Shown here in pieces: positions 23,907 to 64,000 of a stretch of DNA of 64,000 bases (within the stretch, counting starts at the first letter, position 1; each line of letters opens with the position of its first letter). This DNA is from Oscillospiraceae bacterium (lineage in GTDB: Bacteria > Bacillota > Clostridia > UMGS1883 > UMGS1540). The position numbers and the translations under genes were made by a program. The notes beneath the pieces are model-generated. The model saw only the letters and a list, made by a program, of their open reading frames with translations. It had not been told where the DNA came from and ran no database searches. The DNA is taken from the NCBI GenBank assembly GCA_015068765.1, contig SVJY01000005.1, positions 1,968-65,967 of the forward strand, given 5' to 3'.

Positions 23907-23920
23907 CTTGATTTTATGCT

Positions 23921-23936: not shown

Positions 23937-23965
23937 GACAATTTGTCAGAAAGGATGCACTTCAT

Positions 23966-47527: not shown

Positions 47528-48361
47528 TTAGTCTTCCAGGAACTTGCTGAGATAATCATAGTTTTGTTTTGCGCTTACAGCATTGGAAACAGGCGGACGA
47601 TCAAATTCTATACAAAGCGGTCCGCTATAGTTTACAGATTCCAAGATTCTGAATATTTCAGGGAAATCAATTGTCCCGTCTCCAAGTGCATGGAAGCAGG
47701 TCATAACCGGGACGTTAGAATCAACCCAACCGGAATCAGTGACATCGTCACCCATTTTAAAATCTTTAAGATGCGTGAAATTTATTCTATCTGCGTACTG
47801 TCTTATCATTTCCACCGGGTTTCCGCCTGCCGCACAGATGTGTGCAGTATCGGGCGCAAAGTAGATAAGATCTCTGTCCGAATTCTGCATAACATAATGA
47901 ATATCTTCTTCAAACATAAAATACGTATATACATGAGGATGTGCATCTGTGGCAAGACCAAATGTTTTCGCAATTTTAGCAAATCTTACCATATTCTTAA
48001 GGTTATATTCGTGTTCCTTCTCCCCCATTACTTGGGGACGGTCATATGTTCCTTGCAAGGTAACTCTGTCCACGCCCATCTCCGCTGCAAACTGCAGCTC
48101 CCTTTCAAGGTTATTGAACAATTCTTCATCCTCACGTCCCGGTGCCGGAATATGGAAATAAAAGCTTTCTGCTTTCAGTCCGTATTTATCAAGCATAGCT
48201 TTATATTCTTTCGCATTAAGGTCATATGCATACATTGCACCTTTTACGCTCTCAAAGCTTTTGTATCCAATTTCCGTAATTTCCTTAGCCGCAAGTTCTG
48301 CTTGTTCCTTTGTCTCGGTCCCCCAGGGCCATATTGCATATGCCATTTGTGTTTTTTTCAT
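47528..48361 (-). CDS. Sugar phosphate isomerase/epimerase (xylose-isomerase-like TIM barrel)
   Basis: 277 aa. The pattern of conserved E/D/H metal ligands (ESF..., DAHPH, FAPDTAHI, THLKDF, IEFD) fits the AP_endonuc_2/XI-like TIM fold. Confidence 0.8.
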   Translation of the reverse strand: MKKTQMAYAIWPWGTETKEQAELAAKEITEIGYKSFESVKGAMYAYDLNAKEYKAMLDKYGLKAESFYFHIPAPGREDEELFNNLERELQFAAEMGVDRVTLQGTYDRPQVMGEKEHEYNLKNMVRFAKIAKTFGLATDAHPHVYTYFMFEEDIHYVMQNSDRDLIYFAPDTAHICAAGGNPVEMIRQYADRINFTHLKDFKMGDDVTDSGWVDSNVPVMTCFHALGDGTIDFPEIFRILESVNYSGPLCIEFDRPPVSNAVSAKQNYDYLSKFLED

Positions 48362-48485
48362 GTTATTACACCTCTCTATATTTTTTGTAATCTTATTATA
48401 TTGATTTTCTATTAGAAATTCAAGGCCATATCTTCTTTAAAAAACCGCAAAAATTCACATTAATCGTTTGGTTTCAGTTTTATAT

Positions 48486-49430
48486 TTATGCTTCCACTTC
48501 CGAAATCGTCGGCATAGCATTGATAGCACCGCGTCTTCCGATGCAGACGCCTGCTACCTTTGCTGCAAAATGAGCGAAACTTTTTACTTCTTCCAAAGAA
48601 AGTGCCGCCGGCTTTTTGCCGCTTTGAGAAAGGCAATATAAAAATCCGCCCATAAAGGCATCCCCGGCACCCGTTGTATCTACGGGTTTACCGCCTTCTG
48701 CCGACACATGCACATGTCCTTCTTTTGTGAAGACATAGCCGCCTTCGCCGCCGCAGGTTACAAGGGCAACTTTTATGCCCTGTTCCACCAGTGCTTTTCC
48801 GGCTTCTTTCACGCCTGCAAAATCTGTCAGGAGCGCCGTTTCCTCATCGGAAATCTTGACGACATCCGCATAAGGAAGCAGGCTACGCATTTCCTGTTTT
48901 GCCGTTTCTTCGTCCTTCCAGAGAGAAGCACGGTAATTCGGGTCATAGGAAACGATTACGTCTTCTTTTTTGGCAAATTCCAGTGCCGCAAGGCTTGCGC
49001 TTTTCACAGGCTCATCCGTAAGAGAAAGAGAACCGATATGGAAAATACGGCTTTCACGGATTCTTTCATAATCCACTTCTTCTTTTGTAAGAAGGGTATC
49101 TGCCCCCGGCTTCCTTGCAAAGGAAAAGCTTCGTTCGCCGTCTTTTAGTGCCACGAAGGCAAGGGTGGTAAACCCCTCTTCCGTTTCGATAAGCCCACGG
49201 GTATCAATGCCGCAGTTTTCTACTGTTTCCCGAAGGAATGTGCCATGCATATCCTTTCCCACTTTGCCGATAAACGCGGCACTTCCACCGAGATGTGCCA
49301 CGGCAGAAAGTACGTTTGCCGGCGCACCGCCGGGATTTTGTTCAAATAGACGTGCGCCGTTTTCGCTTGTGCCACTTTCGGTAAAATCAATTAAAATTTC
49401 ACCGAGGGCCGTCACATCAAACTTTTTCAT
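48486..49430 (-). CDS. PfkB-family carbohydrate kinase (fructokinase-like)
   Basis: 314 aa. ALGEILIDFT...GGAPANV at the N-terminus and the C-terminal DTTGAGDAF anion-hole motif. Confidence 0.85.
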   Translation of the reverse strand: MKKFDVTALGEILIDFTESGTSENGARLFEQNPGGAPANVLSAVAHLGGSAAFIGKVGKDMHGTFLRETVENCGIDTRGLIETEEGFTTLAFVALKDGERSFSFARKPGADTLLTKEEVDYERIRESRIFHIGSLSLTDEPVKSASLAALEFAKKEDVIVSYDPNYRASLWKDEETAKQEMRSLLPYADVVKISDEETALLTDFAGVKEAGKALVEQGIKVALVTCGGEGGYVFTKEGHVHVSAEGGKPVDTTGAGDAFMGGFLYCLSQSGKKPAALSLEEVKSFAHFAAKVAGVCIGRRGAINAMPTISEVEA

Positions 49431-49439
49431 GTTGCCACC

Positions 49440-50018
<579 letters not shown>

Positions 50019-52457: not shown

Positions 52458-52472
52458 AACCTGTCTCTCCTA

Positions 52473-53555
52473 TTATTTAAATGAAAGAAAACGACTCTGA
52501 ATCTCTGAAGTTACCACAATTCCTTTTTGGAAAAACCCACTGTCGGGATCATTGAGTCCAAGTGCGTCCGGCGTCTTTCCGACAAAGTCAGCACTGCAGC
52601 CCTTTATGTCGGCACCTGCATCCGTTATCGTTACAATTGCATAAAGCGGGTTGTCATACGGAATAACGTGACGGATATCCGGGAATTTCTCATCAATTTC
52701 CGCACTGTATTTCCCTAATTCTGCATAACCGGTTCCTACCCACATACAGGAAATACTGTTCAGATTCAGAAAATATGTGCCGTCTACATAGTCTAGTGTA
52801 TCACGATGCTCATGCCCATTAATAGCAAGCGGCACACCATTCGGAGCTTTTTTGAGAATTTCACGTAATTCGTCAGCATTTTTAATGGAAGCGTATCCTT
52901 CCGTTAAACGCTGATGAGAAAATAACACGGCAGGAAACTTTGTTTCTGCCAAATCTTTTTCAAGCCAGGCAAGCTGTGCATCGGGCAGATACGGAATACA
53001 TTTAGGGAAATCAAAATAGTTTCCGTTTTCATAAGAAACATACTTCCCGTCCACTTTTCCGTAGTTTGCATCCAAAACCACAAAATGTACACCGCCATGG
53101 TCAAAAGAATAATAGGCGCTTTCTCTATTCCAGTAAGATAAAATTTGTTTTTTGGAACAAACATCACATTCGTGGTTGCCGATTGTATGATAAGTGGGCT
53201 TTTCAAAATCCTCATACATTTTCAAAATTTTTTCTTTATCTACCTGTGCAATACCGTTTAGCGCACTTTGCACATTTGCCGGAATGTTTTCCGGTTTACA
53301 AATACATTTTCTGTCTGCATCGGGGTATACATAATCCCCAAGGTGTACGGCAAAGTCAACATTTTCCTTTTTGCAGACTTCTATAAATTCAGCCATGCGC
53401 GCTTCGCCGTCATGCATGATATCAATATGTAAATCTGCAAATATACCAAATTTTACGTTCAAACTCTTTTCCTCCAATCGTTCATTTATAAGTTTTGCCA
53501 CATCCTTTTGACCAGAAACTGAAAACCCGGATATCTTTTCCGTAAGCAGAATCAT
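52473..53555 (-). CDS. Calcineurin-like metallophosphoesterase (paralog of 23966-24889)
   Basis: 360 aa. GIFADLH, HLGDYV, GNHE and NGHEH motifs. 15-nt gap to the GH38 gene. Confidence 0.8.
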   Translation of the reverse strand: MILLTEKISGFSVSGQKDVAKLINERLEEKSLNVKFGIFADLHIDIMHDGEARMAEFIEVCKKENVDFAVHLGDYVYPDADRKCICKPENIPANVQSALNGIAQVDKEKILKMYEDFEKPTYHTIGNHECDVCSKKQILSYWNRESAYYSFDHGGVHFVVLDANYGKVDGKYVSYENGNYFDFPKCIPYLPDAQLAWLEKDLAETKFPAVLFSHQRLTEGYASIKNADELREILKKAPNGVPLAINGHEHRDTLDYVDGTYFLNLNSISCMWVGTGYAELGKYSAEIDEKFPDIRHVIPYDNPLYAIVTITDAGADIKGCSADFVGKTPDALGLNDPDSGFFQKGIVVTSEIQSRFLSFK

Positions 53556-53560
53556 TTTTA

Positions 53561-53610
53561 CCGCAACAAAAGTCCGGCAGACAACACTTCATCCCGTTAT
53601 CAGCCGGACT
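53561..53610 (-). terminator. Weak terminator-like hairpin after the DegT gene
   Basis: AGTCCGGC-N24-GCCGGACT followed on the minus strand by TTTGTTG. The long loop lowers confidence. Confidence 0.3.
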
Positions 53611-53625
53611 TTAAAAATCAATTAC

Positions 53626-54783
53626 TTAACCTCTGATTTCACGGATAAGGTTCTCCACTTCTACATCACTCATGTCGGGATGCAACCCGGTATATACGGT
53701 TCTTTCGAGGAGATCAAGCGTTTTCGGACACATATCCGGTTTATAATCGGGTATGATGTCACGGTTTGCTTCCATCTTAAACGGATCCATTAAAGGATGA
53801 ATTGAACCGCGTTTTTCCATAATGGCCGTCCAGTTTGTATAAATATGTTTACCCGTATCAATCGGAATCGTGTTTCCAAAGGAAACTCTATCCGAAAAGG
53901 CTTTAGCTTCCTCTTTCGTATCAAAACGCATCGCTAATGTTATGCCTAAATCACCGTCCGGATCATTGGACGGAATGAAGGTACGCACATCTTTACATGC
54001 ATCAATGACTCTCTTCTTAATACGACGTAAATCCGTAAGAATACCGTCTAATCTTGAAATCTGCACGCGGAGCACCGCAGAATTCAGTTCATTTGTTCTG
54101 TACTCAACACCGGCAAACATGGGTTCAGAGAAAGATTCCATCTGGTTGCCGAAAAATGCCACCGCACTTGCATCATGATAAATCAAAGCACGCTGGAAGA
54201 GAACATCTTCGTTTGTTAGAAATGCACCACCCTCACCGCAGCTGATTACCTTCATCTGATTAAAGCTGTATGCACCTGCATCGCCGATGGTCCCCAGTCT
54301 GCGACCTTTATAAGAACCACCGTCTGCCTGACAGGCATCCTCCACGATTTTCAGGTTATATTTCTTTGCCAGGGCACAAAGCGCATCCATATTGCAAGGA
54401 AAGCCCTGAATATGTACCGGCATAATTGCCTTTGTGTACGGCGTAATCTTCTTTTCCGTATCTACAGGGTCGAGCGTAAGTGTTTCATCACATTCCGCAA
54501 TTACAGGGATTGCCCCTACTGCCACTACTGCCAACGCCGTGGCAATATACGTATATGCCGGAACGATAACTTGGTCGCCAGGGCCAATCCCCAGTGCCGC
54601 AAGTGCTGAAATCAGCGCTGCCTTACCGCTTGTCATTAAAATTGCATGCTTTGCACCAACTTTTTCTTTGAGTTCTGTTTCAGCTTTTTCTGTTTCCTTT
54701 AAGCCATTATTTACCTTAAAAAAAGTTTTTGCATCAATTACGCGTGCTACCGCATCTTTTTCTTCCTGTCCGAGTCTATACAT
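53626..54783 (-). CDS. DegT/DnrJ/EryC1/StrS-family PLP-dependent sugar aminotransferase
   Basis: 385 aa. TSGKAALISAL, DQVIVPAYTYIAT and the PLP-lysine context YSFNQMKVISCGEGGA. Confidence 0.85.
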   Translation of the reverse strand: MYRLGQEEKDAVARVIDAKTFFKVNNGLKETEKAETELKEKVGAKHAILMTSGKAALISALAALGIGPGDQVIVPAYTYIATALAVVAVGAIPVIAECDETLTLDPVDTEKKITPYTKAIMPVHIQGFPCNMDALCALAKKYNLKIVEDACQADGGSYKGRRLGTIGDAGAYSFNQMKVISCGEGGAFLTNEDVLFQRALIYHDASAVAFFGNQMESFSEPMFAGVEYRTNELNSAVLRVQISRLDGILTDLRRIKKRVIDACKDVRTFIPSNDPDGDLGITLAMRFDTKEEAKAFSDRVSFGNTIPIDTGKHIYTNWTAIMEKRGSIHPLMDPFKMEANRDIIPDYKPDMCPKTLDLLERTVYTGLHPDMSDVEVENLIREIRG

Positions 54784-54797: not shown

Positions 54798-57554
54798 TTA
54801 TCTATAAACAATTGTCATGAGCGGCGTATAGGTTCTTGCCATAAATAATATTTTATCCCCAATCTCCACGTCTTCCTTGGAGATGGCCTCCACGCTGTTC
54901 TTTTGTTTATCAAACAAATATATCAGATTTGTATAATACATAGTGGATTTTACGCTTATATCCGATGCCTTATCCAGCTGTGCATCATACAGATTTACAT
55001 TTGCCATGAATCCGTATTTTGTGAAATCACAGACTTCGCCGTAGGACATAAGTCTATCACTGTAATTTTTAAGAACTGTGGTGGGCTTTATGGTCCCAAG
55101 CAGGGAGTCTTTTTCGTAATTTGCCGGATAATGACCCCGGAACAGAACACAGAGCTGCACTGCCCAATTATTGGAATCCACGACATAGTATATCACGTCG
55201 CCCGGTTCTATATCCTGTATGCCTATCCTTGCCGGTCTTACGCCGCCTACACAAACCGGATCCTTACTACGATCTGTAGCTGCTTCACCGAACAGAACCT
55301 CAAAATCGTTGTCAGCCGTTACTGTCAGGCTACCGCCGCCCTCCGGCCGGAGAACAAGTTTCGATATGCTCCCCCCTGTGCTTTCATCCAGAGCGGTGGA
55401 TACACTTTCCACAAGAGCCAGTTTTGTCCCCGATATCATATACTCGGTGACGTCTCTTTCGTCCCTTCTGTCCCAGACTAGTACGGAAACCACCTCATCC
55501 TCTCCAATATCATAAAGTGCGATATCGTCATAGATTTCGGTGCCGTCCGTTCCGTGTTTCATCGAATCCCAGCTTTTTGTGTAGTAATCCTTTTCTTCAC
55601 CGGAACCCGGCAGAACAAAGATAACCGTTTCACTCCGGACGAGCCAGTTTCTTCCGAAGGCTTTCATATTGCCACCGATGAAGATTGTGTACTCATCCGT
55701 TCCGTTGTCCAGCTTGTAGCCCGGCTTAATGTATGCATCAAGGCTGAAATCCTCTACTCTGTTTGGACTATTAAAATTATGTCTATAGTCTGTTGCTGTT
55801 TCAACAGAAGAAATCTTTTCGCCGTTTTTCTCATATTTGATGAGCTGCTCGAGGATTACGCCACCGCTTTTCAGCGGACTTGTATCTGCCAGAATTTCTG
55901 CCGCATCCCCATCATGTCCGTTTAGCGTCACCTTATCCATACAGTCCAGTACTTCAACCTTACCCTCATGGGTGAAAAGCCGAAGTTGCGGACGGGAATC
56001 AAGTCCCTTTGTCATGGCGGCATTCAAAAGCCAAGCATAATATGCCGTCGCGGCAGTATCGGTATTCACCGCCGCAACATGACCGAACATGTCAAGGGAA
56101 AATGCCGCCTCTGTTCCAAGTCGAGGCATCTCAAAATCGGGTATCTCTATCAGGCTTTTTGCCACAGGATACTCTGTTTCTCCTATCGTGACAGAATCCA
56201 CAGAAATTTCCGAAAGCGTTCCCGTTACAATGTTGCTTGTTAAAACTACTTTTCTATATTTTCCGTTTGCACTTTCTGCCAAGGAAAGTACATCCCATTC
56301 CTTGCATGCGCTTATATCTGCCGCCGTTCCGTCAGAAAGTGTAAACACAGTGGGAATCGTATTATTGAATGAAATACTTCTCTCCGGCGTGCGGTTTTCA
56401 AGCACGGCAACCGTCATCCTAGAACTTGCAACCCGTTCAACAACGTAGTTTTCATAGCTTTCCACGATAACATATTCTACGCTTCCGCCTTTAGAAATCA
56501 GCTTCACGCTTCCCGTTTCCGGCTGAAGCGCCGCCGCAGAGGGCGTCCGGGGCTCGCCGTTTACAATCACCTGTGCGCCTTGGATGGAGATTCTCTCTGT
56601 TTTCGCATCGCGCTCAAAGCAGAACGTGTTGCCGGTTGTCTCCGCTAAAATTTCGTGGCTATGCACCGTTTCGACCGTGGACTTAGAAGTTAAAGCCAGC
56701 ATGGAAAGGCTACCGTCCGCCTCTTCCTTTACGTAAGCCACAATATGTTCACCGAGTCTTTTGTCTGCATCTGTCGCACCGATGGCTATCGTTTGCCCGC
56801 TTAGCACAACCTCATCCGTGCGAAGGCTTCTTCCCGGTGCGGCAATTTCCTGTGCATAGGTTGCCGTAACCACGCCTTCCATAAGCTTTATGTGCAGATA
56901 ATATGAAAGCGGCGTACGAAGTGCGTCCTCTTCAAATGTATAAGAATCATCACCGTAGCTTGTAGGCTTCAGCATTTCCGTATCCAGTGCATTGTAGAGA
57001 AGCATCGACATATCACCGCGGCATAATTCTCCGCCGCCGATTTCGTCCACGCCATTTAAAATTCCCAGCTGCACGGCACAGCTTACGTAGCCTGCCGGAT
57101 AACCGCCTGCAGCTTCCGCCTTTACGGTATATCCAAGAAGATTTATGACCATTTTGATGGCTTGCTCTCCCGTCACCGGTGCATCCGGCATAAACTCCGT
57201 TTCACTTACGCCATGTATAATGCCGAGACTATACGCTGTCGTAACATAGTAGTACGCCCAATGCTCGTACGGGACATCCGCAAAGCAGTCCCGTTCCTCC
57301 GCCCAGTCCTCGATTCCCATCATGCGGACGATCATTGCAACCATCTCCGCACGGGTAACATTTCCGGGTGCGTCAAATTCTCCGTTTTCCCGTCCTTCTA
57401 CGATACCAAGATTATAAAGCACCGAAACGGCCTTTTCATATTTTGTGCCTGCAACATCCTCAACGGTTGCTGCAAAGGGAGAAATACTGCTGACGGTGGT
57501 GCAGAAAAGCACCACTGCCAAAAGTATGCTCCAAAAAATCTTGTTTATTCTCAT
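54798..57554 (-). CDS. Secreted cell-wall-anchored protein S2: signal peptide, N-terminal triple SLH and ~750-aa unknown body (paralog of S1)
   Basis: The track ORF runs to 57713, overlapping P3. I start it at MRINKIFWSILLAVVLFCTTV (ATG ending at 57554), which gives a proper signal peptide with a GGGGA RBS. SLH repeats follow. The body aligns with S1 (LLYNALDTE..., LSYYL..., C-terminal ...VYR). Confidence 0.8.
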   Translation of the reverse strand: MRINKIFWSILLAVVLFCTTVSSISPFAATVEDVAGTKYEKAVSVLYNLGIVEGRENGEFDAPGNVTRAEMVAMIVRMMGIEDWAEERDCFADVPYEHWAYYYVTTAYSLGIIHGVSETEFMPDAPVTGEQAIKMVINLLGYTVKAEAAGGYPAGYVSCAVQLGILNGVDEIGGGELCRGDMSMLLYNALDTEMLKPTSYGDDSYTFEEDALRTPLSYYLHIKLMEGVVTATYAQEIAAPGRSLRTDEVVLSGQTIAIGATDADKRLGEHIVAYVKEEADGSLSMLALTSKSTVETVHSHEILAETTGNTFCFERDAKTERISIQGAQVIVNGEPRTPSAAALQPETGSVKLISKGGSVEYVIVESYENYVVERVASSRMTVAVLENRTPERSISFNNTIPTVFTLSDGTAADISACKEWDVLSLAESANGKYRKVVLTSNIVTGTLSEISVDSVTIGETEYPVAKSLIEIPDFEMPRLGTEAAFSLDMFGHVAAVNTDTAATAYYAWLLNAAMTKGLDSRPQLRLFTHEGKVEVLDCMDKVTLNGHDGDAAEILADTSPLKSGGVILEQLIKYEKNGEKISSVETATDYRHNFNSPNRVEDFSLDAYIKPGYKLDNGTDEYTIFIGGNMKAFGRNWLVRSETVIFVLPGSGEEKDYYTKSWDSMKHGTDGTEIYDDIALYDIGEDEVVSVLVWDRRDERDVTEYMISGTKLALVESVSTALDESTGGSISKLVLRPEGGGSLTVTADNDFEVLFGEAATDRSKDPVCVGGVRPARIGIQDIEPGDVIYYVVDSNNWAVQLCVLFRGHYPANYEKDSLLGTIKPTTVLKNYSDRLMSYGEVCDFTKYGFMANVNLYDAQLDKASDISVKSTMYYTNLIYLFDKQKNSVEAISKEDVEIGDKILFMARTYTPLMTIVYR

Positions 57555-57660
57555 TGCTTCAGTCCCCATTTTAAAGATAATATAGTACGTACTTTTTCCG
57601 TGTTTACCTTTTTTCTTTTCCCTTCGCTTTTTATACCGGCCTGCCGTCCTATGAAAAGGC

Positions 57661-60336
57661 TCATTCCGCCTTCCACGCAAGGATTCTGTCCATAATGACA
57701 GCCGCTTCCGCACGTGTCGTATTCCCGAGCGGCCCGATTGTGCCGTCGGTATACCCGGTTACAATTTCGGCCTTCACCATTGCCGCAACGTCCTCCCGGG
57801 CATACTCTGCAATTTTATCTTTATCTGAAAATGTCGGTTCTTCTCCTTCGGCAAGCTCTTTTACAAGACGCATACCGCGGGCACAGATAACCATCAAATC
57901 CTGCCGGGAAATTTCTGCCTCGGGATTATAATTTACGCCGTCCGTTCCCTTTAAAATGCCAAGGGCTTTTCCGATGGCAATTTCCTTTGCAAATTCGTGA
58001 TTTTCCGCTACATCCCCGAAAAGCTCGGTGCTGTCCGAAGTCAGTCCCAACGTGCGGACCAAGAAACCTGCAAATTCGGCACGGGTGATTTTATCAGCAG
58101 GTGCAAAAATGCCCTCTTCCTTTTCGTTCACAATTCCCTCTTTATAGAGGCTTTCTATTGCTTCCTGTGCCCAATCATATTCGTCAATGTCTGTAAAATG
58201 GGCGTTCATACCTTCGGAATGGTCAGGATTTTCATTCACGGCTTTAAAGTATTCCCAGAATGCATCCTTGGAAAGCGAGGCAAAATCCGCTTTTTGTGTC
58301 GGCACCACTTCTACAACGGATACGCCGTGCTTCGGCACCGTAACCTCCAGCATATTGGAGCTCTTCCGGAAGTCTTCCCCGTCATAGCCGTTTATATATG
58401 ACGCCTGGTAGCGGTCAATCGTTATGCTATCGTCAAAGCTTGTCAGCGGAATCTGGAAGGTTTTCTCTTCCTCTGTGCTCTGATTCATCACAATCATATA
58501 AAGCTTATTATCCTTTATGTAGCCGTGATACATCACGTCCTCGCCTACATAATGGGAAAAGCCGGGGTATTCCTTTATGGCAAAATGGCGGAACACATCG
58601 TCCCGTTCTTTTGCCGCAAAGCTTGTAATACCTTCATAGATATCGGTTTCTGTAACATCGGCAAGTCGTACTGCTTTTCCGTCTATCCGCATAGCATCAT
58701 CCCAGGCATAATATCCATGAGACGTAGCACCTGCCATATAGGCCTGATATATCATATGACGCTCTGCATCCGCATCCGGAAAATAATCAATGTGATGAAA
58801 GGCATGCAAAAGCTCAAATGTAGGTTTTATACCATTTGCTGCATCTACTGCAATTCGTGTTGTATCATATACGTGCGTCGTATCCATCTTTACGCCTGTC
58901 AGTCCCTTTGTTGCAGGAAGGTATGGGTCGTTTGCCACATAGTCACAAACCTTTTGGGTATCTTTTAAGAACTTATCTGTGAGTTCTACAATATACACAG
59001 GATGATTATCATCAATATCACGGATAAGCTTATACGCTTCTTTCAATTCAGGAAGGGGATCCGGCAGATTGAAATACGGTTCATCCGAAACCGCCCAACC
59101 AAATACGCGCGGATCGTCCTTATACTTTGTAACCATTTCAATGGTTTTTTCACGCATTTCGGGATGTGCTGCTGATTTTGGATGTTCGTACAAAACCATC
59201 AAAACCTTCATGCCGTTGTTGCCTGCCTTCTCAAGCTGTGACTCACCGCCCTGAATAACAGAAATCCCTGCCTTTTTGAGTTCCGTATAATCCTTTTCAC
59301 TGTATGGATGATAGACACCTACAACCTGAAAAGGTTCTTCTCCGGGCACTTGATACACGCCGTCTTCTCTGACATACTTTGGTCTTGGATACTTATAGAT
59401 CGTATCCTCTTTTGTATATATTTCTTTTCCTTCCTTATCCTTAAGTACCACCCTGAGTATGTACTCTTTTTTGAGTTCTGTAAGAAGTGTTGTATCATAC
59501 TCAAATACAGCTTCTCCGTTAGAATTCAAAACAGCTTCGTTTTGTTGCAATACATTATTCCCGTCCAAAAGCGAAAACGCCACGCTGCCACCTATAGCTT
59601 CCGGATAATACTCTGTCAGCGCCTTTACATCTACTGTCCCCTTTTCCGCATCCGGATAATAGAAATATTGGTCAGGACTGATTGAAAGCGCTTCCGGCAT
59701 CTGCACCATACGTATAGAGGCATCATCATAATAGCACACAGCACCGTTCTCATGCATAAGCCTTAAATAAATGGAAAGACTTTTCGCATTGATAGGAGCC
59801 TTGAAATTATAAAGTGCCTCCTGCCACTTTCCGTTTGTAGTGTTAATGACAAAGGTATTGACCTGCCATGCTATAGAAAGTCCCGGTGTAGCCTCTGGAT
59901 AGAATTCCAGCTTCACCGTCATAAAACCGCCTTCCACATCCTTACGAACCATGGTTCGGAGCTGATAAATCGCACCGGGTTTTGTTTCAAAGCTCTGTGA
60001 TATAAATGGATTTGCAGCAGGAGCCGCACCTGCCACGAGCTTTAGGGAATGTCCGTCATAGGCTTCCCTACCGGTAACGATGGATGCACCTACGCCGTTT
60101 TCGCCGTCATAAGCACGAGAGCTCCAGCCTACAGGCTTTCCGGATGCATCTATTTCTTCGAGGTTGCCGTTTTTCAGCAAATCTTCCGTTCCTTCTACAG
60201 CCGGAAGCCGCACATCCGTACTGCCCATTGGAATTTCGGCAGTTACCTCTTGTGCTTTATTTTCTGCTATACCCGGGACGCTGAAAACAGTAATCATCAT
60301 GCATGTGCAAATTAAAATTGAGAGTATTTTTTTCAT
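57661..60336 (-). CDS. Modular surface protein P3: signal peptide, 1 CBM4_9-like module, Ig-like linker, unassigned TIM-barrel-like domain (subtype 2), C-terminal triple SLH
   Basis: About 891 aa from MKKILSILICTCMM (the track start is 9 codons upstream at 60363). Central motifs DDPRVFGWAVSDEPYF, YVANDPYLPAT, KPTFELLHAF and AGATSHGYYAW. The SLH triplet is the last 178 aa (nt 57664-58197). Confidence 0.8.
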   Translation of the reverse strand: MKKILSILICTCMMITVFSVPGIAENKAQEVTAEIPMGSTDVRLPAVEGTEDLLKNGNLEEIDASGKPVGWSSRAYDGENGVGASIVTGREAYDGHSLKLVAGAAPAANPFISQSFETKPGAIYQLRTMVRKDVEGGFMTVKLEFYPEATPGLSIAWQVNTFVINTTNGKWQEALYNFKAPINAKSLSIYLRLMHENGAVCYYDDASIRMVQMPEALSISPDQYFYYPDAEKGTVDVKALTEYYPEAIGGSVAFSLLDGNNVLQQNEAVLNSNGEAVFEYDTTLLTELKKEYILRVVLKDKEGKEIYTKEDTIYKYPRPKYVREDGVYQVPGEEPFQVVGVYHPYSEKDYTELKKAGISVIQGGESQLEKAGNNGMKVLMVLYEHPKSAAHPEMREKTIEMVTKYKDDPRVFGWAVSDEPYFNLPDPLPELKEAYKLIRDIDDNHPVYIVELTDKFLKDTQKVCDYVANDPYLPATKGLTGVKMDTTHVYDTTRIAVDAANGIKPTFELLHAFHHIDYFPDADAERHMIYQAYMAGATSHGYYAWDDAMRIDGKAVRLADVTETDIYEGITSFAAKERDDVFRHFAIKEYPGFSHYVGEDVMYHGYIKDNKLYMIVMNQSTEEEKTFQIPLTSFDDSITIDRYQASYINGYDGEDFRKSSNMLEVTVPKHGVSVVEVVPTQKADFASLSKDAFWEYFKAVNENPDHSEGMNAHFTDIDEYDWAQEAIESLYKEGIVNEKEEGIFAPADKITRAEFAGFLVRTLGLTSDSTELFGDVAENHEFAKEIAIGKALGILKGTDGVNYNPEAEISRQDLMVICARGMRLVKELAEGEEPTFSDKDKIAEYAREDVAAMVKAEIVTGYTDGTIGPLGNTTRAEAAVIMDRILAWKAE

Positions 60337-60378
60337 ATATGCATTCCTTTCAAAGTGTTCCATATATTTATCGTTAAT

Positions 60379-63300
60379 TTAGGGGAAAGATATCGCTTTC
60401 GTCTGCGGGCATATACTGCTGATATCGTCCCATACAAACGCTTTATAAACGTATTCTCCTCCATCTGCGGGCTTGGCAAGTGCCGCTGATGCACGAAGCG
60501 GTGTTTCGCCCACTTCAGTTGGATTATCCTTCTTTTCTTCCAATGAATTTATGATGGCAACCATTTCAGCTGTATCCGTACCCGTTTCTATTTCATCGAG
60601 ATAAAAATTATTTTCTCCATATACTCTGTACCGCGCCAGAATAACAGTTAGTGTACGGTATTTATTTTCTGCACTGTAATCCGTCCCAAACGCTACGAGG
60701 TCAGCCTTCACTTCGTCGTCTGTTTCAGAAACCGTAAGCTTATCTTCTGCAATCCCGAAAGATATATTATCGATTTTCACGATATCGTCACCACTGGCAC
60801 AGCCAAAGAAAAACGAGTTATTGCTTGCATCAAGAGGATTTGTATAATACATGGAATAGTCTCTGCGCCATACGCTACCCGTAGACCCGATGGTTTTGCC
60901 CGGTGCCCATACAATCGGGGGTGCACTTGCACCAATGTATGCATATGTACTATACCTGTTTCCTACATAATCAAACTGTAAAACACCGCGACGGCCGCGA
61001 AGCTCAGGAGCGTTATTTATAGACAGATTATAGTAGATTTCTCTCGGTGTATCCTGAAATTTTTTTGCATGAATGCTTAAGTAATGATTCCCATCCGGCT
61101 CCATCATAACAGAGGCAATCTCTTCTTCGCCCCAGTTAAACGAGTTACCTTTGTAATACCATGCGCCTGCCGGCTTATAATCTCCTGCAAAGCCTTCAAG
61201 GTCACCATTTCTAACATAATCTGTTGTTACATATGCCGCAAAGTCATCTATCGCCACTTCCCCTACACCGGAAAAGGTGACACGGACGATAAAGTTCGCT
61301 TCCGCTGCATTCGTATAGCACAGCATCATTTTTCGCCATCCCATGGGCGTTCCATCACCATATGCCGTTTTTACGAACCAATCTGTGGACGCAAGAACGG
61401 TACTGCCGTTGGCAGATACCAGCTCCAGCTTAACGCCCGATCCGGTCGTGAGGCCGGTCAGGTTCATAAATGCGGTAATATCCAGCTTTCCTGCCGGGAG
61501 GGTTACGGGTTTTGATATCGTCACTGTGTCAGTAGAACGGCTACCGGAAAGCACCAGTGCCCCCGCACTACCGCCATGGGTTTTTGCCGGATCGGTTTCC
61601 TTTGAAAAAGAAGCCGTACCGCTTTTGGAAACCGCATAGCCATCCGGCTTGCCACCGGCAAAGATTTCCATTCCCGAATTCTCAACAAAATTCTCTTCGT
61701 CCTCCCCGGAGCATTTCATCTCGTTCACGGCTTTAAAATAGTTCCAGAATTTTTCTTTTGAAAGTATACTGAAATCTACCGTCTCCGCAGGGGTAATCTC
61801 CAAAAGGGCAACGCCGTGCTTCGGCACCGTGACCGTCACAGAACTCGTTGTTCCTGTAAAGTTTTCACCCTCTTTTCCGGAAACGTATGCCGCCTTGTAA
61901 CCTTTGAGAGATATACTGCCATCAAAGCTTGTAAGCGGAACGGTAATTTCTTTCTCCTCTGCCGTACTCTGATTCATAACAATCAAATACAGTTTACCGT
62001 CCTTTATATAACTGTGATACATTACATCCGCACCTACATAATGGGAAAAGCCGGGATATTCCTTCGTGACAAAATGGCGGAATACATCTTCCTGCTCTTT
62101 TTCCGCAAAAGCTCTGATACCTTCATAGATATTTGTTTCTGTAACATCGGGAAGCCTGATACTTATTCCGTCTACCTTCATGGCATCATCCCATGCATAA
62201 TATCCATGAGACGTAGCCCCTGCCATATAAGCCTGGTAAATCATGTGTCTTTCCGCATCCGCATCGGGCAGATAATCAATATGTTTGAAGGCGTGCAAAA
62301 GCTCGAGTGTTGGTTTTATTTCTTCTGCCGCCGCCATTGTAATACGCGTTGTGTCATACACATGGGATGTATTCATCTTAACGCCTTTCATCCCTTCCGT
62401 TGCAGGCAAGTAAGGGTCATTGGCAACATAATCACAAACCTTTTTTGTATCCTTCAAAAACTTGGATGTGCATTCCACAATATACACAGGATGATTATCA
62501 TCAATATCACGAATCAGTTTATAAGCCTCTTTTAGCTCCGGAAGCGGATCCGGCAAACTGAAATACGGCTCATCTGCAACCGCCCATCCGAAAACGCGTG
62601 GGTCATCCTTATATTTTGTAACCAATTCAATGGTTTTTGCACGCAAATCCGGATGTACGGCGGACTTAGATGGTTCATACAGCACCATAAGCACCTTCAT
62701 GCCCTTCTCGGCGGCACGGCTCAGCATCCCTTCGTTTCCTTGCAGTACGGTAATGCCGGCATTCTTAAGTTCTGCATAATCCTTTTCGTCATAAGGATGA
62801 TAGGCGGCTACTGCATGAAAGGGAGCTTCTTTGGGAGCTTGAAATACACCATCTTCTCTGATATACTTCGGGCGGGCATACTTATAGATCGTGTCTTCTT
62901 TTGTGTATAGTGCCTTTCCGTCTTTGTCTTTAAGCACCGCCCGAAGTATATACTCTTTTTTCAGTTCTGTAAGAAGTGTTGTGTCATATTCAAATGTAGC
63001 TTCACCGTTTTGATCCAATATACTTTCTCTTTGTTCCAGCACTTTATCTTCGGCCATCAGCGAAAACACTACACTTCCGCCTATAGCCTCCGGATAATAC
63101 TCCGTCAACGCTTTAACAGAAGCAGTTCCCTTCTCCGCCTCCGGATAATAGAAATATTGGTCGGGGCTGATTGAAAGCTCTTCAGCCGGCTGTACCATAC
63201 AGATGGAAGCGTTATCATAATAGCAAACTTCGCCATCCTCATTTAGGAGCCGAAAATAAACAGAAACACTTTTGGCATTTGTGGGTGCCTTGAAATTATA

Positions 63301-63810
63301 GAGCATTTCCTGCCACTTTCCGCTTGTAGTGGTAACGTTAAACGTATAGACCTGCCATGCCATGGATAAGCCCGGTAAAGCCTCGGGATAAAACTCCAGT
63401 TTCACCGTCATGCCGCTTCGTCCCGAATCCTTTCGAATCATGGTACGAAGCTGATAAACAGCGCCGGGGTTTGTCTCAAAGGTCTGTGAGATATACGGAT
63501 TTGCCGCAGGAGAGGCACCGCCCACAAGTTTTAGGGAATTTCCTTCGTAGGCTTTCTCGTCACTAATGATAAATGCACCTGATCCGTCCGTTCTTCCAAA
63601 AGCACTGCATCCCCATTTTTCAGGTCTTCCTGCTGCATCCAAATCTTCAAGATCTCCGTTTTTCAGGAGTTCTTCCGTTCCTTCCACCGCAGGAAGCTTA
63701 ATACTAGTGATGCCTAATGGAATCTCTTCCTTGCTTTCTGCCCTGCCGGGCATGATGAAAACAGGAACCAACATACATATGCAAATTAAAATTGAGAGCG
63801 TTCTTTTCAT
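60379..63810 (-). CDS. Modular secreted protein P4: same CBM plus subtype-2 TIM-barrel-like core as P3, but the SLH triplet is replaced by ~480 aa of additional CBM-like/beta-sandwich modules
   Basis: About 1143 aa from MKRTLSILICICML (the track start is at 63837). The core is highly similar to P3 at both aa and nt level. The C-terminal half has NG.LE.F-type jelly-roll patterns and ends ...YVYKAFVWDDISSICPQTKAISFP. Confidence 0.8.
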   Translation of the reverse strand: MKRTLSILICICMLVPVFIMPGRAESKEEIPLGITSIKLPAVEGTEELLKNGDLEDLDAAGRPEKWGCSAFGRTDGSGAFIISDEKAYEGNSLKLVGGASPAANPYISQTFETNPGAVYQLRTMIRKDSGRSGMTVKLEFYPEALPGLSMAWQVYTFNVTTTSGKWQEMLYNFKAPTNAKSVSVYFRLLNEDGEVCYYDNASICMVQPAEELSISPDQYFYYPEAEKGTASVKALTEYYPEAIGGSVVFSLMAEDKVLEQRESILDQNGEATFEYDTTLLTELKKEYILRAVLKDKDGKALYTKEDTIYKYARPKYIREDGVFQAPKEAPFHAVAAYHPYDEKDYAELKNAGITVLQGNEGMLSRAAEKGMKVLMVLYEPSKSAVHPDLRAKTIELVTKYKDDPRVFGWAVADEPYFSLPDPLPELKEAYKLIRDIDDNHPVYIVECTSKFLKDTKKVCDYVANDPYLPATEGMKGVKMNTSHVYDTTRITMAAAEEIKPTLELLHAFKHIDYLPDADAERHMIYQAYMAGATSHGYYAWDDAMKVDGISIRLPDVTETNIYEGIRAFAEKEQEDVFRHFVTKEYPGFSHYVGADVMYHSYIKDGKLYLIVMNQSTAEEKEITVPLTSFDGSISLKGYKAAYVSGKEGENFTGTTSSVTVTVPKHGVALLEITPAETVDFSILSKEKFWNYFKAVNEMKCSGEDEENFVENSGMEIFAGGKPDGYAVSKSGTASFSKETDPAKTHGGSAGALVLSGSRSTDTVTISKPVTLPAGKLDITAFMNLTGLTTGSGVKLELVSANGSTVLASTDWFVKTAYGDGTPMGWRKMMLCYTNAAEANFIVRVTFSGVGEVAIDDFAAYVTTDYVRNGDLEGFAGDYKPAGAWYYKGNSFNWGEEEIASVMMEPDGNHYLSIHAKKFQDTPREIYYNLSINNAPELRGRRGVLQFDYVGNRYSTYAYIGASAPPIVWAPGKTIGSTGSVWRRDYSMYYTNPLDASNNSFFFGCASGDDIVKIDNISFGIAEDKLTVSETDDEVKADLVAFGTDYSAENKYRTLTVILARYRVYGENNFYLDEIETGTDTAEMVAIINSLEEKKDNPTEVGETPLRASAALAKPADGGEYVYKAFVWDDISSICPQTKAISFP

Positions 63811-63870
63811 ATAAGCATTCCTTTTAAAGTATTTCATATAAAGTGCGCTTTGAAAATTATGCCCTCACTT

Positions 63871-64000
63871 TTAAGAAAGTGTTTCAGATGTAATCTGCGG
63901 GCTTAAGCTATTAATATAATCCCATGCAAATGCCTTGTATACATATTTCCCGTCATCTGCAGGCTTATCCAGGCTGGCAGTGGCACGAAGGGGTGTTTCA
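63871..64000 (-). CDS. C-terminal end of a further paralog (P5, P4-type tail); the gene runs off the right edge
   Basis: Reverse translation gives ...ETPLRATASLDKPADDGKYVYKAFAWDYINSLSPQITSETLS*, which aligns with the P4 C-terminus (ETPLRASAALAKPADGGEYVYKAFVWDDISSICPQ). Confidence 0.6.
   Translation of the reverse strand, partial: ETPLRATASLDKPADDGKYVYKAFAWDYINSLSPQITSETLS

What the first reader, a model, noticed from the sequence alone, without database searches (positions are those of the whole stretch)
57661..64000. Second tandem array (P3, P4, P5) with a diverged core subtype and anchor swapping: SLH triplet versus extra CBM-like modules
P3 and P4 share a near-identical N-terminal CBM plus core, and long stretches are conserved at nucleotide level (for example 58990-59150 versus 62470-62640). 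Their core motifs differ systematically from P1/P2:
- WAV(S/A)DEPYF instead of VMDEPS
- NDPYLPAT instead of DPYPG
- KPT(F/L)ELLHAF instead of LNQ.YLEG

The subtype-2 motif places a Glu where subtype 1 has Cys/Val.

P3 ends in a triple SLH. P4, and P5 judging from its 42 visible C-terminal residues, instead carry ~480 aa of additional jelly-roll modules and no anchor. This is module shuffling within one locus, giving wall-bound and released versions of the same core.
Basis: seen in the sequence. Interest (0 to 1): 0.75.

Follow-up and report, generated by a model that had tools for sequence, protein, structure and literature searches.

The report
Duplication-born fusion of surface glycosidase genes
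Two neighbouring genes for secreted sugar-cutting enzymes in an uncultured gut bacterium are old duplicates, and one of them lost its cell-wall anchor and gained a copy of the sugar-binding helper protein encoded just upstream, most simply through one tandem duplication; this is a tidy but not extraordinary example of how such enzymes get rebuilt.

Summary
The sequence facts mostly hold. P3 (900 aa) and P4 (1152 aa) are minus-strand paralogues, 71% identical over about 710 aa. P3 then ends in three SLH repeats, and P4 ends in about 445 aa of all-beta modules with no recognised anchor. "Near-identical" is overstated: DNA identity is 75% overall and 85.6% in the cited stretch.

The three-enzyme array is wrong. 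P5 is a 466-aa stand-alone secreted protein (MBE7024773.1) with no catalytic core. Its mature part matches the P4 C-terminal extension end to end at 58% identity.

The P5-end/spacer/P4-start DNA is homologous to the P4-end/spacer/P3-start DNA. Synonymous divergence is equal in the accessory and enzyme parts. The simplest origin is therefore one tandem duplication running from just after the P5 signal peptide to just before the SLH region, with P4 as the junction chimera.

The order P5-P4-P3 recurs at 94.5% DNA identity in an independent assembly, so it is not an artefact.

The core has no Pfam family and is annotated as hypothetical. It is nevertheless a large family (532 clusters at E<=1e-30), remotely related to clan GH-A, with an invariant Asp-Glu pair and no conserved strand-7 nucleophile.

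Anchored plus unanchored tandem pairs are the rule in related loci. Substrate and localisation remain inferences.

The parts
63871..64000 (-). P5, last 42 codons plus stop (stop codon 63871-63873). The full protein is a 466-aa stand-alone secreted accessory protein made of a signal peptide, module A, module B and a tail. It has no enzyme core.
   Evidence: The translation is identical to the C-terminus of P0172 = MBE7024773.1 from the 68.5-kb source contig. The orthologue in L001 lies at 4241-5647 and is 468 aa.
63838..63870 (-). P5-P4 spacer. It is homologous to the P4-P3 spacer, which forms part of the duplicated unit.
   Evidence: One search aligns P5-end/spacer/P4-start with P4-end/spacer/P3-start. 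No terminator-like site falls in the spacer.
60379..63837 (-). P4, the chimeric gene. It combines a P3-like signal peptide, CBM and core with a copy of mature P5. The likely true start is the ATG at 63810, giving the 1143 aa that NCBI annotates.
63205..63690 (-). P4 N-terminal CBM_4_9-like jelly-roll (aa 50-211).
   Evidence: The Pfam CBM_4_9 score is 24.5 bits, just under the 25.9-bit cut-off. Homologues P0005, P0019 and P0030 pass the cut-off at the same position.
61759..63204 (-). P4 core (aa 212-693): Ig-like domain, (beta/alpha)8 barrel and C-terminal beta-sandwich. The Asp-Glu pair lies at 62569-62574.
   Evidence: It is 74% identical to the P3 core. Coordinates were checked.
61690..61749 (-). 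Fusion junction in P4: ...FWNYFKAVNE | MKCSGEDEEN..., with the break between 61720 and 61719. Upstream of the break P4 matches P3. Downstream it matches mature P5.
61240..61692 (-). P4 accessory module A (aa 716-866), a CBM-like jelly-roll.
   Evidence: It is homologous to P5 aa 33-183. The model's best fold matches are tandem CBM22 (4xup) and CBM61. The equivalent module of the L016 618-aa homologue passes Pfam CBM_4_9 at 35.8 bits.
60745..61236 (-). P4 accessory module B (aa 868-1031), all-beta, modelled with low confidence.
60385..60741 (-). P4 C-terminal 'tail' beta-sandwich (aa 1033-1151), ending ...YVYKAFVWDDISSICP.... Its function is unknown.
   Evidence: The same end motif closes 33 of 64 SLH-less relatives that have C-terminal extensions.
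60364..60378 (-). P4-P3 spacer of 15 nt.
57661..60363 (-). P3, the SLH-anchored paralogue that keeps the ancestral architecture. The likely true start is the ATG at 60336.
59716..60201 (-). P3 N-terminal CBM-like jelly-roll (aa 55-216).
   Evidence: It is homologous to the P4 N-terminal module. It has no Pfam hit of its own.
58270..59715 (-). P3 core (aa 217-698): Ig-like domain at 59392-59715, (beta/alpha)8 barrel at 58576-59328, and beta-sandwich at 58300-58563.
   Evidence: The AlphaFold2 model has pLDDT 91.2 and pTM 0.90. Fold matches are to GH66, GH5, GH13 and GH2 three-domain enzymes. Profile matches are to GH158, GH2 and GH5.
59080..59085 (-). Asp427-Glu428 of P3, at the end of strand 4. 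The pair is invariant in the family.
   Evidence: It is present in 161 of 161 sequences. It aligns with the Asn-Glu acid/base motif of GH158, GH2 and GH5.
58798..58827 (-). Strand-7 motif KPTFELLHAF of P3. Glu517 and His520 are peculiar to the P3/P4 lineage.
   Evidence: Position 517 is mostly S/A/T/V/C. Position 520 is Gln in 120 of 161, Glu in 10 and His in 3. The sister sequence P0017 reads TFQLLQ.
57670..58206 (-). P3 triple SLH module (aa 720-898).
   Evidence: Pfam SLH finds 3 stretches at E=1.4e-33. The PDB S-layer protein Sap SLH domain matches at E=6.5e-10.
54798..57569 (-). X971, a 923-aa protein with an N-terminal SLH pair. It is the conserved last structural gene of the cassette.

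Best explanation
SETTING
P5, P4, P3 and X971 are consecutive, probably co-transcribed genes on the minus strand. They form a cell-surface glycan-degrading cassette in an uncultured Oscillospiraceae bacterium.

ANCESTRAL UNIT
The ancestral unit was two genes.
- A secreted, non-catalytic accessory protein with two CBM-like jelly-rolls and a C-terminal beta-sandwich. This is P5.
- An SLH-anchored enzyme: signal peptide, CBM, Ig-like domain, TIM barrel, beta-sandwich, SLH x3. This is P3.

THE EVENT
One old tandem duplication copied a segment of about 3.5 kb. The segment ran from just after the P5 signal peptide to just after the enzyme core, before the SLH region. The result was three genes:
- P5, left intact.
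- P4, a chimera at the duplication junction: a complete enzyme N-terminus and core fused in frame to mature accessory protein.
- P3, core plus SLH, left intact.

FUNCTIONAL INFERENCE
- P3 is held on the cell wall by its SLH triplet.
- P4 carries the same catalytic machinery, tethered to glycan-binding modules instead of a wall anchor.
- P5 acts as a free or surface-associated glycan binder.
- The core is a retaining-type glycosidase descended from clan GH-A, and Glu428 is its acid/base.
- The neighbouring invariant Asp, together with the absence of a conserved strand-7 carboxylate, suggests a non-classical nucleophile arrangement. One possibility is neighbouring-group participation on a 2-acetamido or 2-amino sugar.

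SHOWN VERSUS INFERRED
Shown: the homologies, the breakpoints, the synteny, the phylogeny, the fold and the motif conservation.
Inferred: the single-step origin, co-transcription, localisation, enzymatic activity and substrate.
For: Identity of P5
- The window fragment equals the C-terminus of a 466-aa protein.
- The L001 orthologue is 468 aa, has its own signal peptide, and has an AraC regulator gene upstream.

Origin of P4
- P4 aa ~712-1152 aligns end to end with mature P5 at 58% identity.
- A continuous 3322-nt alignment at 71.5% links [P4 C-term, spacer, P3 N-term and core] to [P5, spacer, P4 N-term and core].
- The stop/spacer/start regions align with each other.
- Homology stops exactly at the two predicted breakpoints: the P5 signal peptide, and the SLH region after FKAVNE.
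- Four-fold-site identity is the same in the accessory pair (0.46), the CBM pair (0.46) and the core pair (0.45) in L001. In the window it is 0.49-0.53. The baseline for anciently diverged paralogues is 0.26-0.34.
- The NJ tree gives (P3,P4) bootstrap 100, with SLH-bearing P0017 as sister at 99 and further SLH-bearing outgroups.
- The P4-type architecture is confined to this lineage among about 170 family members. Core-SLH is the dominant architecture.

Reality of the arrangement
- It is collinear at 94.5% with an independent MAG.

The cassette
- The order accessory, enzymes, ~900-aa SLH protein recurs in L016, L017 and L020.
- L003 shows an unfused order: accessory, enzyme, accessory, enzyme.
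- The spacers are 15-91 nt and contain no terminator-like site.

The core
- The model has pLDDT 91.
- Profile hits are GH158 3e-13, GH2 2.6e-10 and GH5 2.6e-8, with the family D-E-P aligned on N-E-(P/S).
- hhalign against the window's own GH2 gives 89% probability, against 0.1% for the window's GH20.
- Asp-Glu is present in 161 of 161 sequences.

The accessory modules
- The fold resembles tandem CBM22 and CBM61.
- There is transitive CBM_4_9 membership through the L016 618-aa homologue.
Against: - A two-step route gives the same end state and cannot be excluded. That route is duplication of the whole gene pair followed by an in-frame deletion.
- Synonymous sites are far diverged (dS about 1.0-1.6). 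'Equal age' is therefore consistent with the data but only weakly resolved.
- The P4 C-terminal model is of modest quality (pLDDT 65, four sequences). Module B is poorly defined.
- There is no expression, localisation or activity data.
- The family may already belong to a numbered CAZy family. These tools cannot check that.
- No model coordinates were available, so the side-chain geometry of residues 517, 519 and 520 is unknown.
- The window holds no csaB-type pyruvyltransferase gene to support SLH-mediated wall binding. Only 64 kb was seen.
Confidence: 0.7

Rival explanations
1. P3, P4 and P5 form a three-member tandem array of one enzyme core. Generic domain shuffling exchanged anchors among them, giving a wall-bound form (SLH) and released forms (extra CBM-like modules).
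For: P3 and P4 do share the core and differ at the C-terminus. The P5 tail does resemble the P4 tail.
Against: P5 is 466 aa and has no core. The 'extra modules' are a copy of P5 itself, with the spacer and gene start co-duplicated. That points to one segmental duplication, not independent shuffling. Release of P4 and P5 has not been tested.
Confidence: 0.1
2. Two-step origin. The whole accessory-enzyme pair was duplicated first, giving acc-enz-acc-enz as seen in L003. A later in-frame deletion then removed the SLH region of the first enzyme, the spacer, and the signal peptide of the second accessory gene.
For: L003 shows that such an unfused four-gene arrangement exists in a distant relative. 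The end product would be identical to what is observed.
Against: It needs two events with exactly placed, in-frame breakpoints, where a single tandem duplication gives all three genes at once. No intermediate was found in the close relatives (L001, L016).
Confidence: 0.2
3. P4 and P5 are not released. Their conserved C-terminal tail beta-sandwich is an unrecognised attachment or docking module, for example binding the X971-type SLH protein or the anchored paralogue. On this view the swap is one anchor for another.
For: The tail motif closes 33 of 64 SLH-less relatives that have C-terminal extensions, i.e. in the place SLH occupies in other members. An X971-like SLH protein follows the enzyme genes in at least six loci. 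Ten of 13 adjacent pairs in other loci combine an SLH partner with a non-SLH partner, often with overlapping stop and start codons. That pattern is what one expects for subunits made together.
Against: There is no sequence or fold match to cohesin, dockerin or any known anchor. The tail could equally be an Ig-like spacer or another CBM. Co-occurrence is not evidence of interaction.
Confidence: 0.2
4. The duplicated or fused genes are an assembly or frameshift artefact. On this view collapsed or duplicated contigs, or a sequencing error, joined two ORFs.
For: The source is a metagenome-assembled genome. Tandem paralogues are a known assembly hazard.
Against: P3 and P4 are only 75% identical at DNA level, and the longest exact shared run is 35 nt. 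That is far too diverged to be collapsed or mis-joined. The whole 6.3-kb arrangement recurs at 94.5% identity with a single gap in an independent MAG. A P4-type ORF of 1143-1157 aa occurs in three assemblies.
Confidence: 0.02
5. Recent gene conversion or recombination moved an SLH cassette between the two arrays, from P2 to P3. This would explain a 43-aa block that is identical in both proteins.
For: The block AKEIAIGKALGILKGTDGVNYNPEAEISRQDLMVICARGMRLV is identical in P2 and P3, although the cores are only about 30% identical.
Against: Within that block, nt identity is 81% and third-codon identity only 53%. SLH regions are 54-67% identical among most subfamilies compared, including sequences from other genomes. 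The block therefore reflects purifying selection on wall binding, not recent exchange.
Confidence: 0.03

Closest known systems
Clan GH-A glycoside hydrolases, most closely GH158 (PDB 9oro), then GH2 beta-glucuronidases (1bhg, 6xxw) and GH5 (T. maritima Cel5A, 3amc)
   Same: The barrel is (beta/alpha)8. Profile-level sequence homology covers strands 2-6, at E=3e-13, 2.6e-10 and 2.6e-8. The family Glu428 aligns with the strand-4 acid/base Glu. A conserved Tyr follows strand 6. As in GH2, an Ig-like domain precedes the barrel (hhalign 89%).
   Different: P3 and P4 reach no Pfam or NCBIfam family threshold. The Asn of the N-E-P motif is an invariant Asp. No carboxylate is conserved at or after the end of strand 7, where position 520 is mostly Gln and is His in P3/P4.
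GH66 dextranases (5axg, 8iub, 3vmn), the top Foldseek matches
   Same: They share the three-domain layout: N-terminal Ig-like domain, catalytic barrel, C-terminal beta-sandwich.
   Different: TM-scores are only about 0.4 and identity about 10%. There is no sequence-level signal. GH66 uses an Asp nucleophile on strand 4 and acts on alpha-glucans, whereas the sequence homology here points to GH-A.
SLH-anchored multimodular glycanases of Firmicutes, of the type CBM22/CBM4_9 + catalytic domain + SLH x3 (for example Paenibacillus barcinonensis Xyn10C, whose tandem CBM22 structure is 4xup)
   Same: The domain order is signal peptide, CBM_4_9/CBM22-like jelly-rolls, TIM-barrel catalytic domain, SLH triplet. 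The P4 extension best matches tandem CBM22.
   Different: The catalytic domain is not GH10 or any Pfam-defined family. Here the CBM tandem also exists as a separate gene (P5) and was fused on by duplication.
DE-motif, substrate-assisted hexosaminidases (GH20, GH123 and related beta-N-acetylgalactosaminidases; PMC11087588)
   Same: There is an N-terminal beta-sandwich and a TIM barrel. An adjacent Asp-Glu pair follows strand 4, and a conserved Tyr lies further along. No enzyme nucleophile is evident. A GH20 gene sits next to the first array.
   Different: This is a resemblance in possible mechanism only. There is no Pfam GH20 or DUF4091 hit. hhalign probability against the window's GH20 is 0.1%. 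The detectable homology is to GH-A.
Non-catalytic surface glycan-binding proteins encoded beside glycosidases in polysaccharide utilisation loci (for example B. thetaiotaomicron SGBP-B, 7kwb)
   Same: P5-type proteins are secreted, made only of CBM-like or Ig-like beta modules, and encoded directly upstream of the enzymes under an AraC-type regulator. 7kwb appears among the fold matches.
   Different: The host is Gram-positive. P5 is not a lipoprotein and there is no SusC/D pair. Binding has not been shown.
Chimeric genes created at the junction of a tandem segmental duplication (general mechanism, established knowledge)
   Same: The breakpoints lie inside two adjacent genes. Both parental genes stay intact on either side of a new in-frame chimera.
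   Different: There is nothing unusual in the mechanism itself. The interest is that it converts an anchored enzyme into a CBM-tethered one.

Membership tests
SLH domain (Pfam PF00395) | Three tandem SLH repeats scoring above the Pfam gathering threshold | tested here: met
   P3 scores 115.1 bits against a 20.8-bit cut-off, with 3 stretches. It also matches the B. anthracis Sap SLH structure at E=6.5e-10.
SLH domain (Pfam PF00395) | Presence of SLH repeats in P4 and P5 | tested here: not met
   Pfam finds no SLH in P4 or in P0172 = P5. A local SLH profile also finds none.
SLH-mediated wall anchoring | Binding to pyruvylated secondary cell-wall polymer, with csaB present in the genome | not testable with these tools
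   Only 64 kb of the genome was seen. No pyruvyltransferase appeared among the window proteins that were scanned.
Clan GH-A | (beta/alpha)8 catalytic barrel | tested here: met
   The AlphaFold2 model has pLDDT 91.2 with eight strand/helix pairs. Foldseek hits are TIM-barrel glycosidases.
Clan GH-A | Acid/base Glu at the end of strand 4, within an Asn-Glu(-Pro) motif | tested here: inconclusive
   The Glu is invariant and aligns with the GH158, GH2 and GH5 acid/base. The preceding Asn, however, is replaced by an invariant Asp.
Clan GH-A | Nucleophile Glu at the end of strand 7 | tested here: not met
   P3/P4 read TFELLH and TLELLH. Across the family, position 520 is Gln in 120 of 161, Glu in 10 and His in 3, and positions 517, 519 and 523 are not conserved carboxylates. 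The register relative to GH2 is uncertain.
GH158 / GH2 / GH5 as families | A score above the family model threshold across the catalytic domain | tested here: not met
   P3 and P4 have no Pfam GH family hit. NCBIfam gives only sub-threshold beta-glucuronidase hits, and only for P1/P2. The PDB alignments are partial, covering strands 2-6.
GH20 / GH123 (DE-motif hexosaminidases) | Sequence membership (Glyco_hydro_20, DUF4091/GH123 models) | tested here: not met
   There are no Pfam hits. hhalign against the window's GH20 gives 0.1% probability.
GH20 / GH123 (DE-motif hexosaminidases) | Substrate-assisted catalysis: thiazoline inhibition, and retention without an enzyme nucleophile | not testable with these tools
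   This needs enzymology. Only the adjacent Asp-Glu pair and the missing nucleophile are seen.
CBM_4_9 (Pfam PF02018) | N-terminal module of P3/P4 above the threshold | tested here: inconclusive
   P4 scores 24.5 bits against 25.9, and P3 has no hit. Homologues P0005, P0019 and P0030 pass at the equivalent position.
CBM_4_9 (Pfam PF02018) | Modules A and B of the P4 extension and of P5 | tested here: inconclusive
   There is no direct Pfam hit. The P5 homologue in L016 (618 aa; 27% identity, E=4e-26) passes CBM_4_9 in module A at 35.8 bits. The fold match to tandem CBM22 and CBM61 rests on a pLDDT-65 model.
Sortase, dockerin or cohesin anchoring | LPXTG-type sorting signal, or dockerin/cohesin domains, in P4/P5 | tested here: not met
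   A regular-expression search finds no sorting motif in P3 or P4. Pfam finds no hit in the P4 extension or in P5 at E<=1 and E<=0.1 respectively.
Numbered CAZy GH family | A match to a CAZy/dbCAN family model | not testable with these tools
   No CAZy or dbCAN library is on hand. Every public name seen is 'hypothetical protein' or 'S-layer homology domain-containing protein'.

The most novel reading that the evidence does not exclude
The cassette could be a previously undescribed Gram-positive surface glycan-degrading system of uncultured Oscillospiraceae/Clostridia. It would have two unusual parts. First, its catalytic family would be a GH-A-derived glycosidase family that has dropped the strand-7 nucleophile and works through the invariant Asp-Glu pair, by neighbouring-group catalysis on amino or acetamido sugars. 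Second, its SLH-less paralogues and accessory proteins would dock onto the anchored partner, or onto the X971-type SLH protein, through the conserved C-terminal tail module. That would be a cohesin/dockerin-like assembly built from unrelated parts. P4 would then act as a natural 'Rosetta stone' fusion, showing that enzyme and accessory protein work together.
Probability: 0.12. Interest if true: 0.75.

Novelty: new variant of a known kind. Interest (0 to 1): 0.42.

Why it matters
- The locus is a clean natural example of how one tandem duplication with breakpoints in two adjacent genes can re-tool a surface enzyme. An SLH-anchored glycosidase becomes a CBM-tethered one, and both parent genes stay intact.
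- The fusion ties an unannotated accessory protein family (P5-type) functionally to an unannotated enzyme family.
- That enzyme family is large: 532 clusters at 50% identity with E<=1e-30. It is expanded to many copies per genome in uncultured gut Clostridia. Every member whose public name was looked up is labelled 'hypothetical protein' or only 'S-layer homology domain-containing protein'.
- Its catalytic signature is odd for a GH-A relative: an invariant Asp-Glu pair and no conserved nucleophile. This makes it a reasonable target for discovering a new glycosidase activity.
- None of this overturns current understanding. Modular rearrangement of Firmicute CAZymes is well known.

Tried and rejected
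- **Word-indexed homologue search.** It suggested the core was extremely rare, with 4-7 hits. The exhaustive profile search showed this was a sensitivity artefact, returning 6967 hits at E<=1e-3.
- **Exact look-up of P3 and P4 in the contig index.** It found nothing. The source was identified through cluster membership instead.
- **Locus search with the 13-sequence alignment.** The 7-sequence alignment worked.
- **Gene conversion between the P2 and P3 SLH regions.** Rejected, because third-codon identity in the 43-aa identical block is 53%.
- **Assembly artefact.** Rejected.
- **X529 as a P5 homologue.** The similarity is only marginal (E about 0.002-0.2). X529 is analogous in position, but homology is not demonstrated.
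- **Relationship of the core to the window's GH20, GH38, GHL6, GH51 and DUF6259 proteins.** None was detected by hhalign.
- **Pfam on the separate P4 extension modules and on the P1 post-SLH extension.** There were no meaningful hits.
- **PDB sequence search with X971.** Only the SLH region matched.
- **Literature searches for a GH-A family with a D-E-P motif or substrate-assisted mechanism.** No matching family turned up. GH185/GH163 (DUF4838) and the GH123-related groups are different families.
- **Locating the nucleophile by aligning strand 7 to GH2.** The register is unreliable.
- **Promoter and terminator scan.** Counts are at chance level and therefore uninformative, except that no terminator-like site falls in the spacers.

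Full report
**1. What is at the coordinates**

All the genes concerned lie on the minus strand.
- P3 = 57661..60363, 900 aa.
- P4 = 60379..63837, 1152 aa.
- The window ends inside the next gene upstream, P5. Only 42 codons and the stop (63871-63873) are visible.
- The likely true starts are the second ATGs, each 8-9 nt after AAAGGAA. These are 60336 (MKKILSIL...) for P3 and 63810 (MKRTLSIL...) for P4. NCBI annotates P4 as 1143 aa.
- Both proteins begin with Sec-type signal peptides.

**2. Checking the observation**

What holds:
- P3 and P4 are 71% identical over P3 1-711 / P4 1-706. Similarity ends right after the shared ...FKAVNE.
- The three motif contrasts with P1/P2 are exactly as described, including Glu in P3/P4 opposite Cys (P1) and Val (P2).
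- P3 carries three SLH repeats (Pfam E=1.4e-33; Sap SLH structure E=6.5e-10).
- P4 has no SLH, no LPXTG-type motif, and no Pfam hit in its last ~445 aa.

What is overstated:
- 'Near-identical' does not hold. Gene-wide DNA identity is 75.5%.
- The cited stretch is 85.6% identical over 160 nt, and the longest exact shared run is 35 nt.
- Third-codon identity is 0.5-0.65.

These are old paralogues held similar by protein-level selection.

**3. P5 is not a third enzyme**

- Cluster look-up places the window in a 68.5-kb contig of a Ruminococcaceae/Oscillospiraceae MAG. The locus tags are E7408_01790 (P3), _01795 (P4) and _01800 (P5). All three are annotated 'hypothetical protein'.
- P5 (MBE7024773.1, P0172) is 466 aa. 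Its C-terminus is identical to the window fragment.
- It consists of a signal peptide plus three beta modules, and it has no N-terminal CBM and no core.
- Its mature part aligns end to end with P4 aa ~712-1152 at 58% identity.
- Stand-alone homologues of 468, 483 and 605 aa exist elsewhere.
- A closely related independent MAG contig (L001) has the order AraC regulator, 468-aa P5, 1157-aa P4, 901-aa P3.

**4. How P4 arose**

- Window 57683-64000 is collinear with L001 at 94.5% identity with one gap. The arrangement is therefore real.
- The same comparison gives a continuous 3322-nt, 71.5% alignment. It links [P4 extension, spacer, P3 N-terminus and core] to [P5, spacer, P4 N-terminus and core].
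- Inside the window, P4-end/spacer/P3-start aligns with P5-end/spacer/P4-start, apart from an extra 17 nt in the P5-P4 spacer.
- The repeated unit is therefore 'mature accessory protein, spacer, enzyme N-terminus and core'.

A single tandem duplication explains this. One breakpoint lies just after the P5 signal peptide, and the other lies just after the enzyme core, before SLH. It predicts exactly what is seen: an intact P5, a junction chimera (core fused in frame to mature accessory, which is P4), and an intact core-SLH gene (P3).

Supporting evidence:
- Identity at four-fold degenerate sites is the same in the accessory pair (0.46), the CBM pair (0.46) and the core pair (0.45) in L001.
- In the window it is 0.49-0.53. 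The baseline for anciently diverged paralogues is 0.26-0.34, and 0.25 is expected from base composition.
- A neighbour-joining tree of cores puts P3 and P4 together (bootstrap 100). SLH-bearing P0017 is their sister (99), and further SLH-bearing sequences lie outside. SLH is therefore ancestral and P4 is derived.
- The P4-type architecture is confined to this lineage among about 170 family members. Two unrelated members (P0019, P0030) have acquired similar modules.

A two-step route, with pair duplication followed by deletion, cannot be excluded. L003 shows an unfused accessory-enzyme-accessory-enzyme order in a distant relative.

**5. The core**

- Neither P3 nor P4 matches any Pfam or NCBIfam catalytic family.
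- The word-indexed search found only a handful of relatives. The exhaustive profile search found 532 clusters at 50% identity with E<=1e-30 and 3493 with E<=1e-10.
- Every name seen is 'hypothetical' or 'S-layer homology domain-containing protein', and all come from metagenomes or MAGs.
- The AlphaFold2 model (pLDDT 91.2, pTM 0.90) shows an Ig-like domain, a (beta/alpha)8 barrel and a C-terminal beta-sandwich.
- Foldseek finds three-domain glycosidases (GH66, GH5, GH13, GH2) at low TM-scores.
- A family profile hits GH158 (3e-13), GH2 beta-glucuronidases (2.6e-10) and GH5 (2.6e-8). The family's D-E-P aligns on their N-E-(P/S) acid/base motif.
- hhalign relates the family to the window's own GH2 (89%), but not to its GH20, GH38, GHL6, GH51 or DUF6259 proteins.

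Conservation across 161 sequences:

| Position (P3 numbering) | Conservation |
|---|---|
| Asp427-Glu428 | 161 of 161 |
| Tyr481 | 160 |
| Asp479 | 156 |
| 517 | mostly S/A/T/V/C; Glu is not among the six commonest residues |
| 519 | Leu or Asn |
| 520 | Gln 120, Glu 10, His 3 |
| 523 | mixed |

No carboxylate is conserved in or after strand 7. The sister sequence P0017 reads TFQLLQ.

I infer a retaining-type glycosidase of GH-A descent with Glu428 as acid/base. The invariant Asp, together with the missing nucleophile, recalls the DE-motif, substrate-assisted enzymes (GH20, GH123 and relatives; PMC11087588). That is a resemblance in possible mechanism only. Membership was tested and not met. 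The substrate is unknown.

**6. The accessory modules**

- The P4-extension model is of modest quality (pLDDT 65).
- Its best fold matches are the tandem CBM22 of Paenibacillus Xyn10C and CBM61.
- A P5 homologue in L016 (27% identity, E=4e-26) passes Pfam CBM_4_9 in module A.
- The last ~120 aa form a separate beta-sandwich ending ...YVYKAFVWD...P. The same end motif closes 33 of 64 SLH-less relatives that have C-terminal extensions. Its role is unknown.

**7. Wider context**

- In 15 related loci, core genes almost always sit in tandem.
- In 10 of 13 other adjacent pairs, one partner has SLH and the other does not. The partners are 28-39% identical, and the gaps run from -26 to +29 nt.
- P3/P4 is a young pair (74% identical) that recreates this anchored plus unanchored pattern.
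- The order AraC regulator, P5-type accessory protein(s), enzymes, ~900-aa SLH protein recurs in L016, L017 and L020.
- The window's X971 is 55% identical to the L016 protein and 32% identical to X977, which lies beside the first array.
- The spacers from P5 to X971 are 15-91 nt and contain no terminator-like site. Co-transcription is therefore likely but not shown.

**8. Verdict**

- The 'anchor swap' is better described as a duplication-born fusion of an SLH-type enzyme with a copy of its neighbouring accessory gene.
- Wall-bound versus released localisation remains an inference. The conserved tail leaves open that P4 and P5 are retained at the surface.
- The kind of thing, modular surface glycosidases of Firmicutes, is well known. 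The unclassified GH-A-like core with an Asp-Glu signature and the tidy origin of the chimera give it moderate interest.

Noticed in passing
window 54798-57569 (-) and 32374-35307 (+): X971 (923 aa) and X977 (977 aa) are paralogues, 32% identical over their full length. Each has an N-terminal SLH pair followed by about 750 aa with no Pfam or PDB match. One sits beside each enzyme array. A 55%-identical orthologue directly follows the enzymes in L016, and similar ~900-aa SLH proteins follow the enzymes in L010, L011 (after a 1.7-kb gap), L017 and L020.
   Followed up: partly
window 44748-46337 (-): X529 is a stand-alone secreted 529-aa CBM_4_9 protein directly upstream of P2. It occupies the same position that P5 holds upstream of P4. 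Its sequence similarity to the P5 family is only marginal.
   Followed up: partly
loci L002, L004, L005, L006, L008, L010, L011, L017, L020: Adjacent core genes are typically one SLH-bearing and one SLH-less paralogue, 28-39% identical. Their stop and start codons are overlapping or nearly abutting (-26 to +29 nt). This suggests co-translated partners.
   Followed up: partly
window 57976-58104 (P3) and 41327-41455 (P2): A 43-aa block of the SLH region is identical in P2 and P3, although their cores are about 30% identical. Third-codon identity in the block is only 53%. The block therefore reflects strong purifying selection, not gene conversion.
   Followed up: yes
window 47528-54783 (-): Downstream of X971 on the same strand lie a DegT-type aminotransferase, a metallophosphoesterase, a cytoplasmic GH38 alpha-mannosidase, a cupin resembling D-lyxose isomerase, a PfkB kinase and a xylose-isomerase-like TIM-barrel protein. 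Together they look like a catabolic route for an unusual sugar, possibly an amino or mannose-type sugar.
   Followed up: no
window 35481-37280 (-): A GH20 hexosaminidase with the GH20C C-terminal domain lies directly downstream of P1. This is suggestive, given the Asp-Glu signature of the core family, but it proves nothing.
   Followed up: no
window 18000-24000: This stretch has low GC (0.36-0.375, against about 0.47 elsewhere). It holds a GH63/MGH1-like hydrolase, a Fic-domain protein and a LacI regulator. It may have been acquired horizontally.
   Followed up: no
window 37415-37985 (-), P1 aa 1021-1210: P1 carries a ~190-aa extension after its SLH triplet. The extension has no Pfam match. 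P0018 in L016 has a similar post-SLH extension.
   Followed up: no
protein P0014 (2145 aa, ENA metagenome): One family member carries two complete cores in tandem within a single polypeptide.
   Followed up: no
window 54798-57713 (-): The mechanical ORF for X971 starts at a GTG at 57713 and overlaps the end of P3 by 53 nt. The signal-peptide-like sequence begins at MRINKIFW..., downstream of the ATG at 57569. The overlap is therefore almost certainly an ORF-calling artefact.
   Followed up: yes
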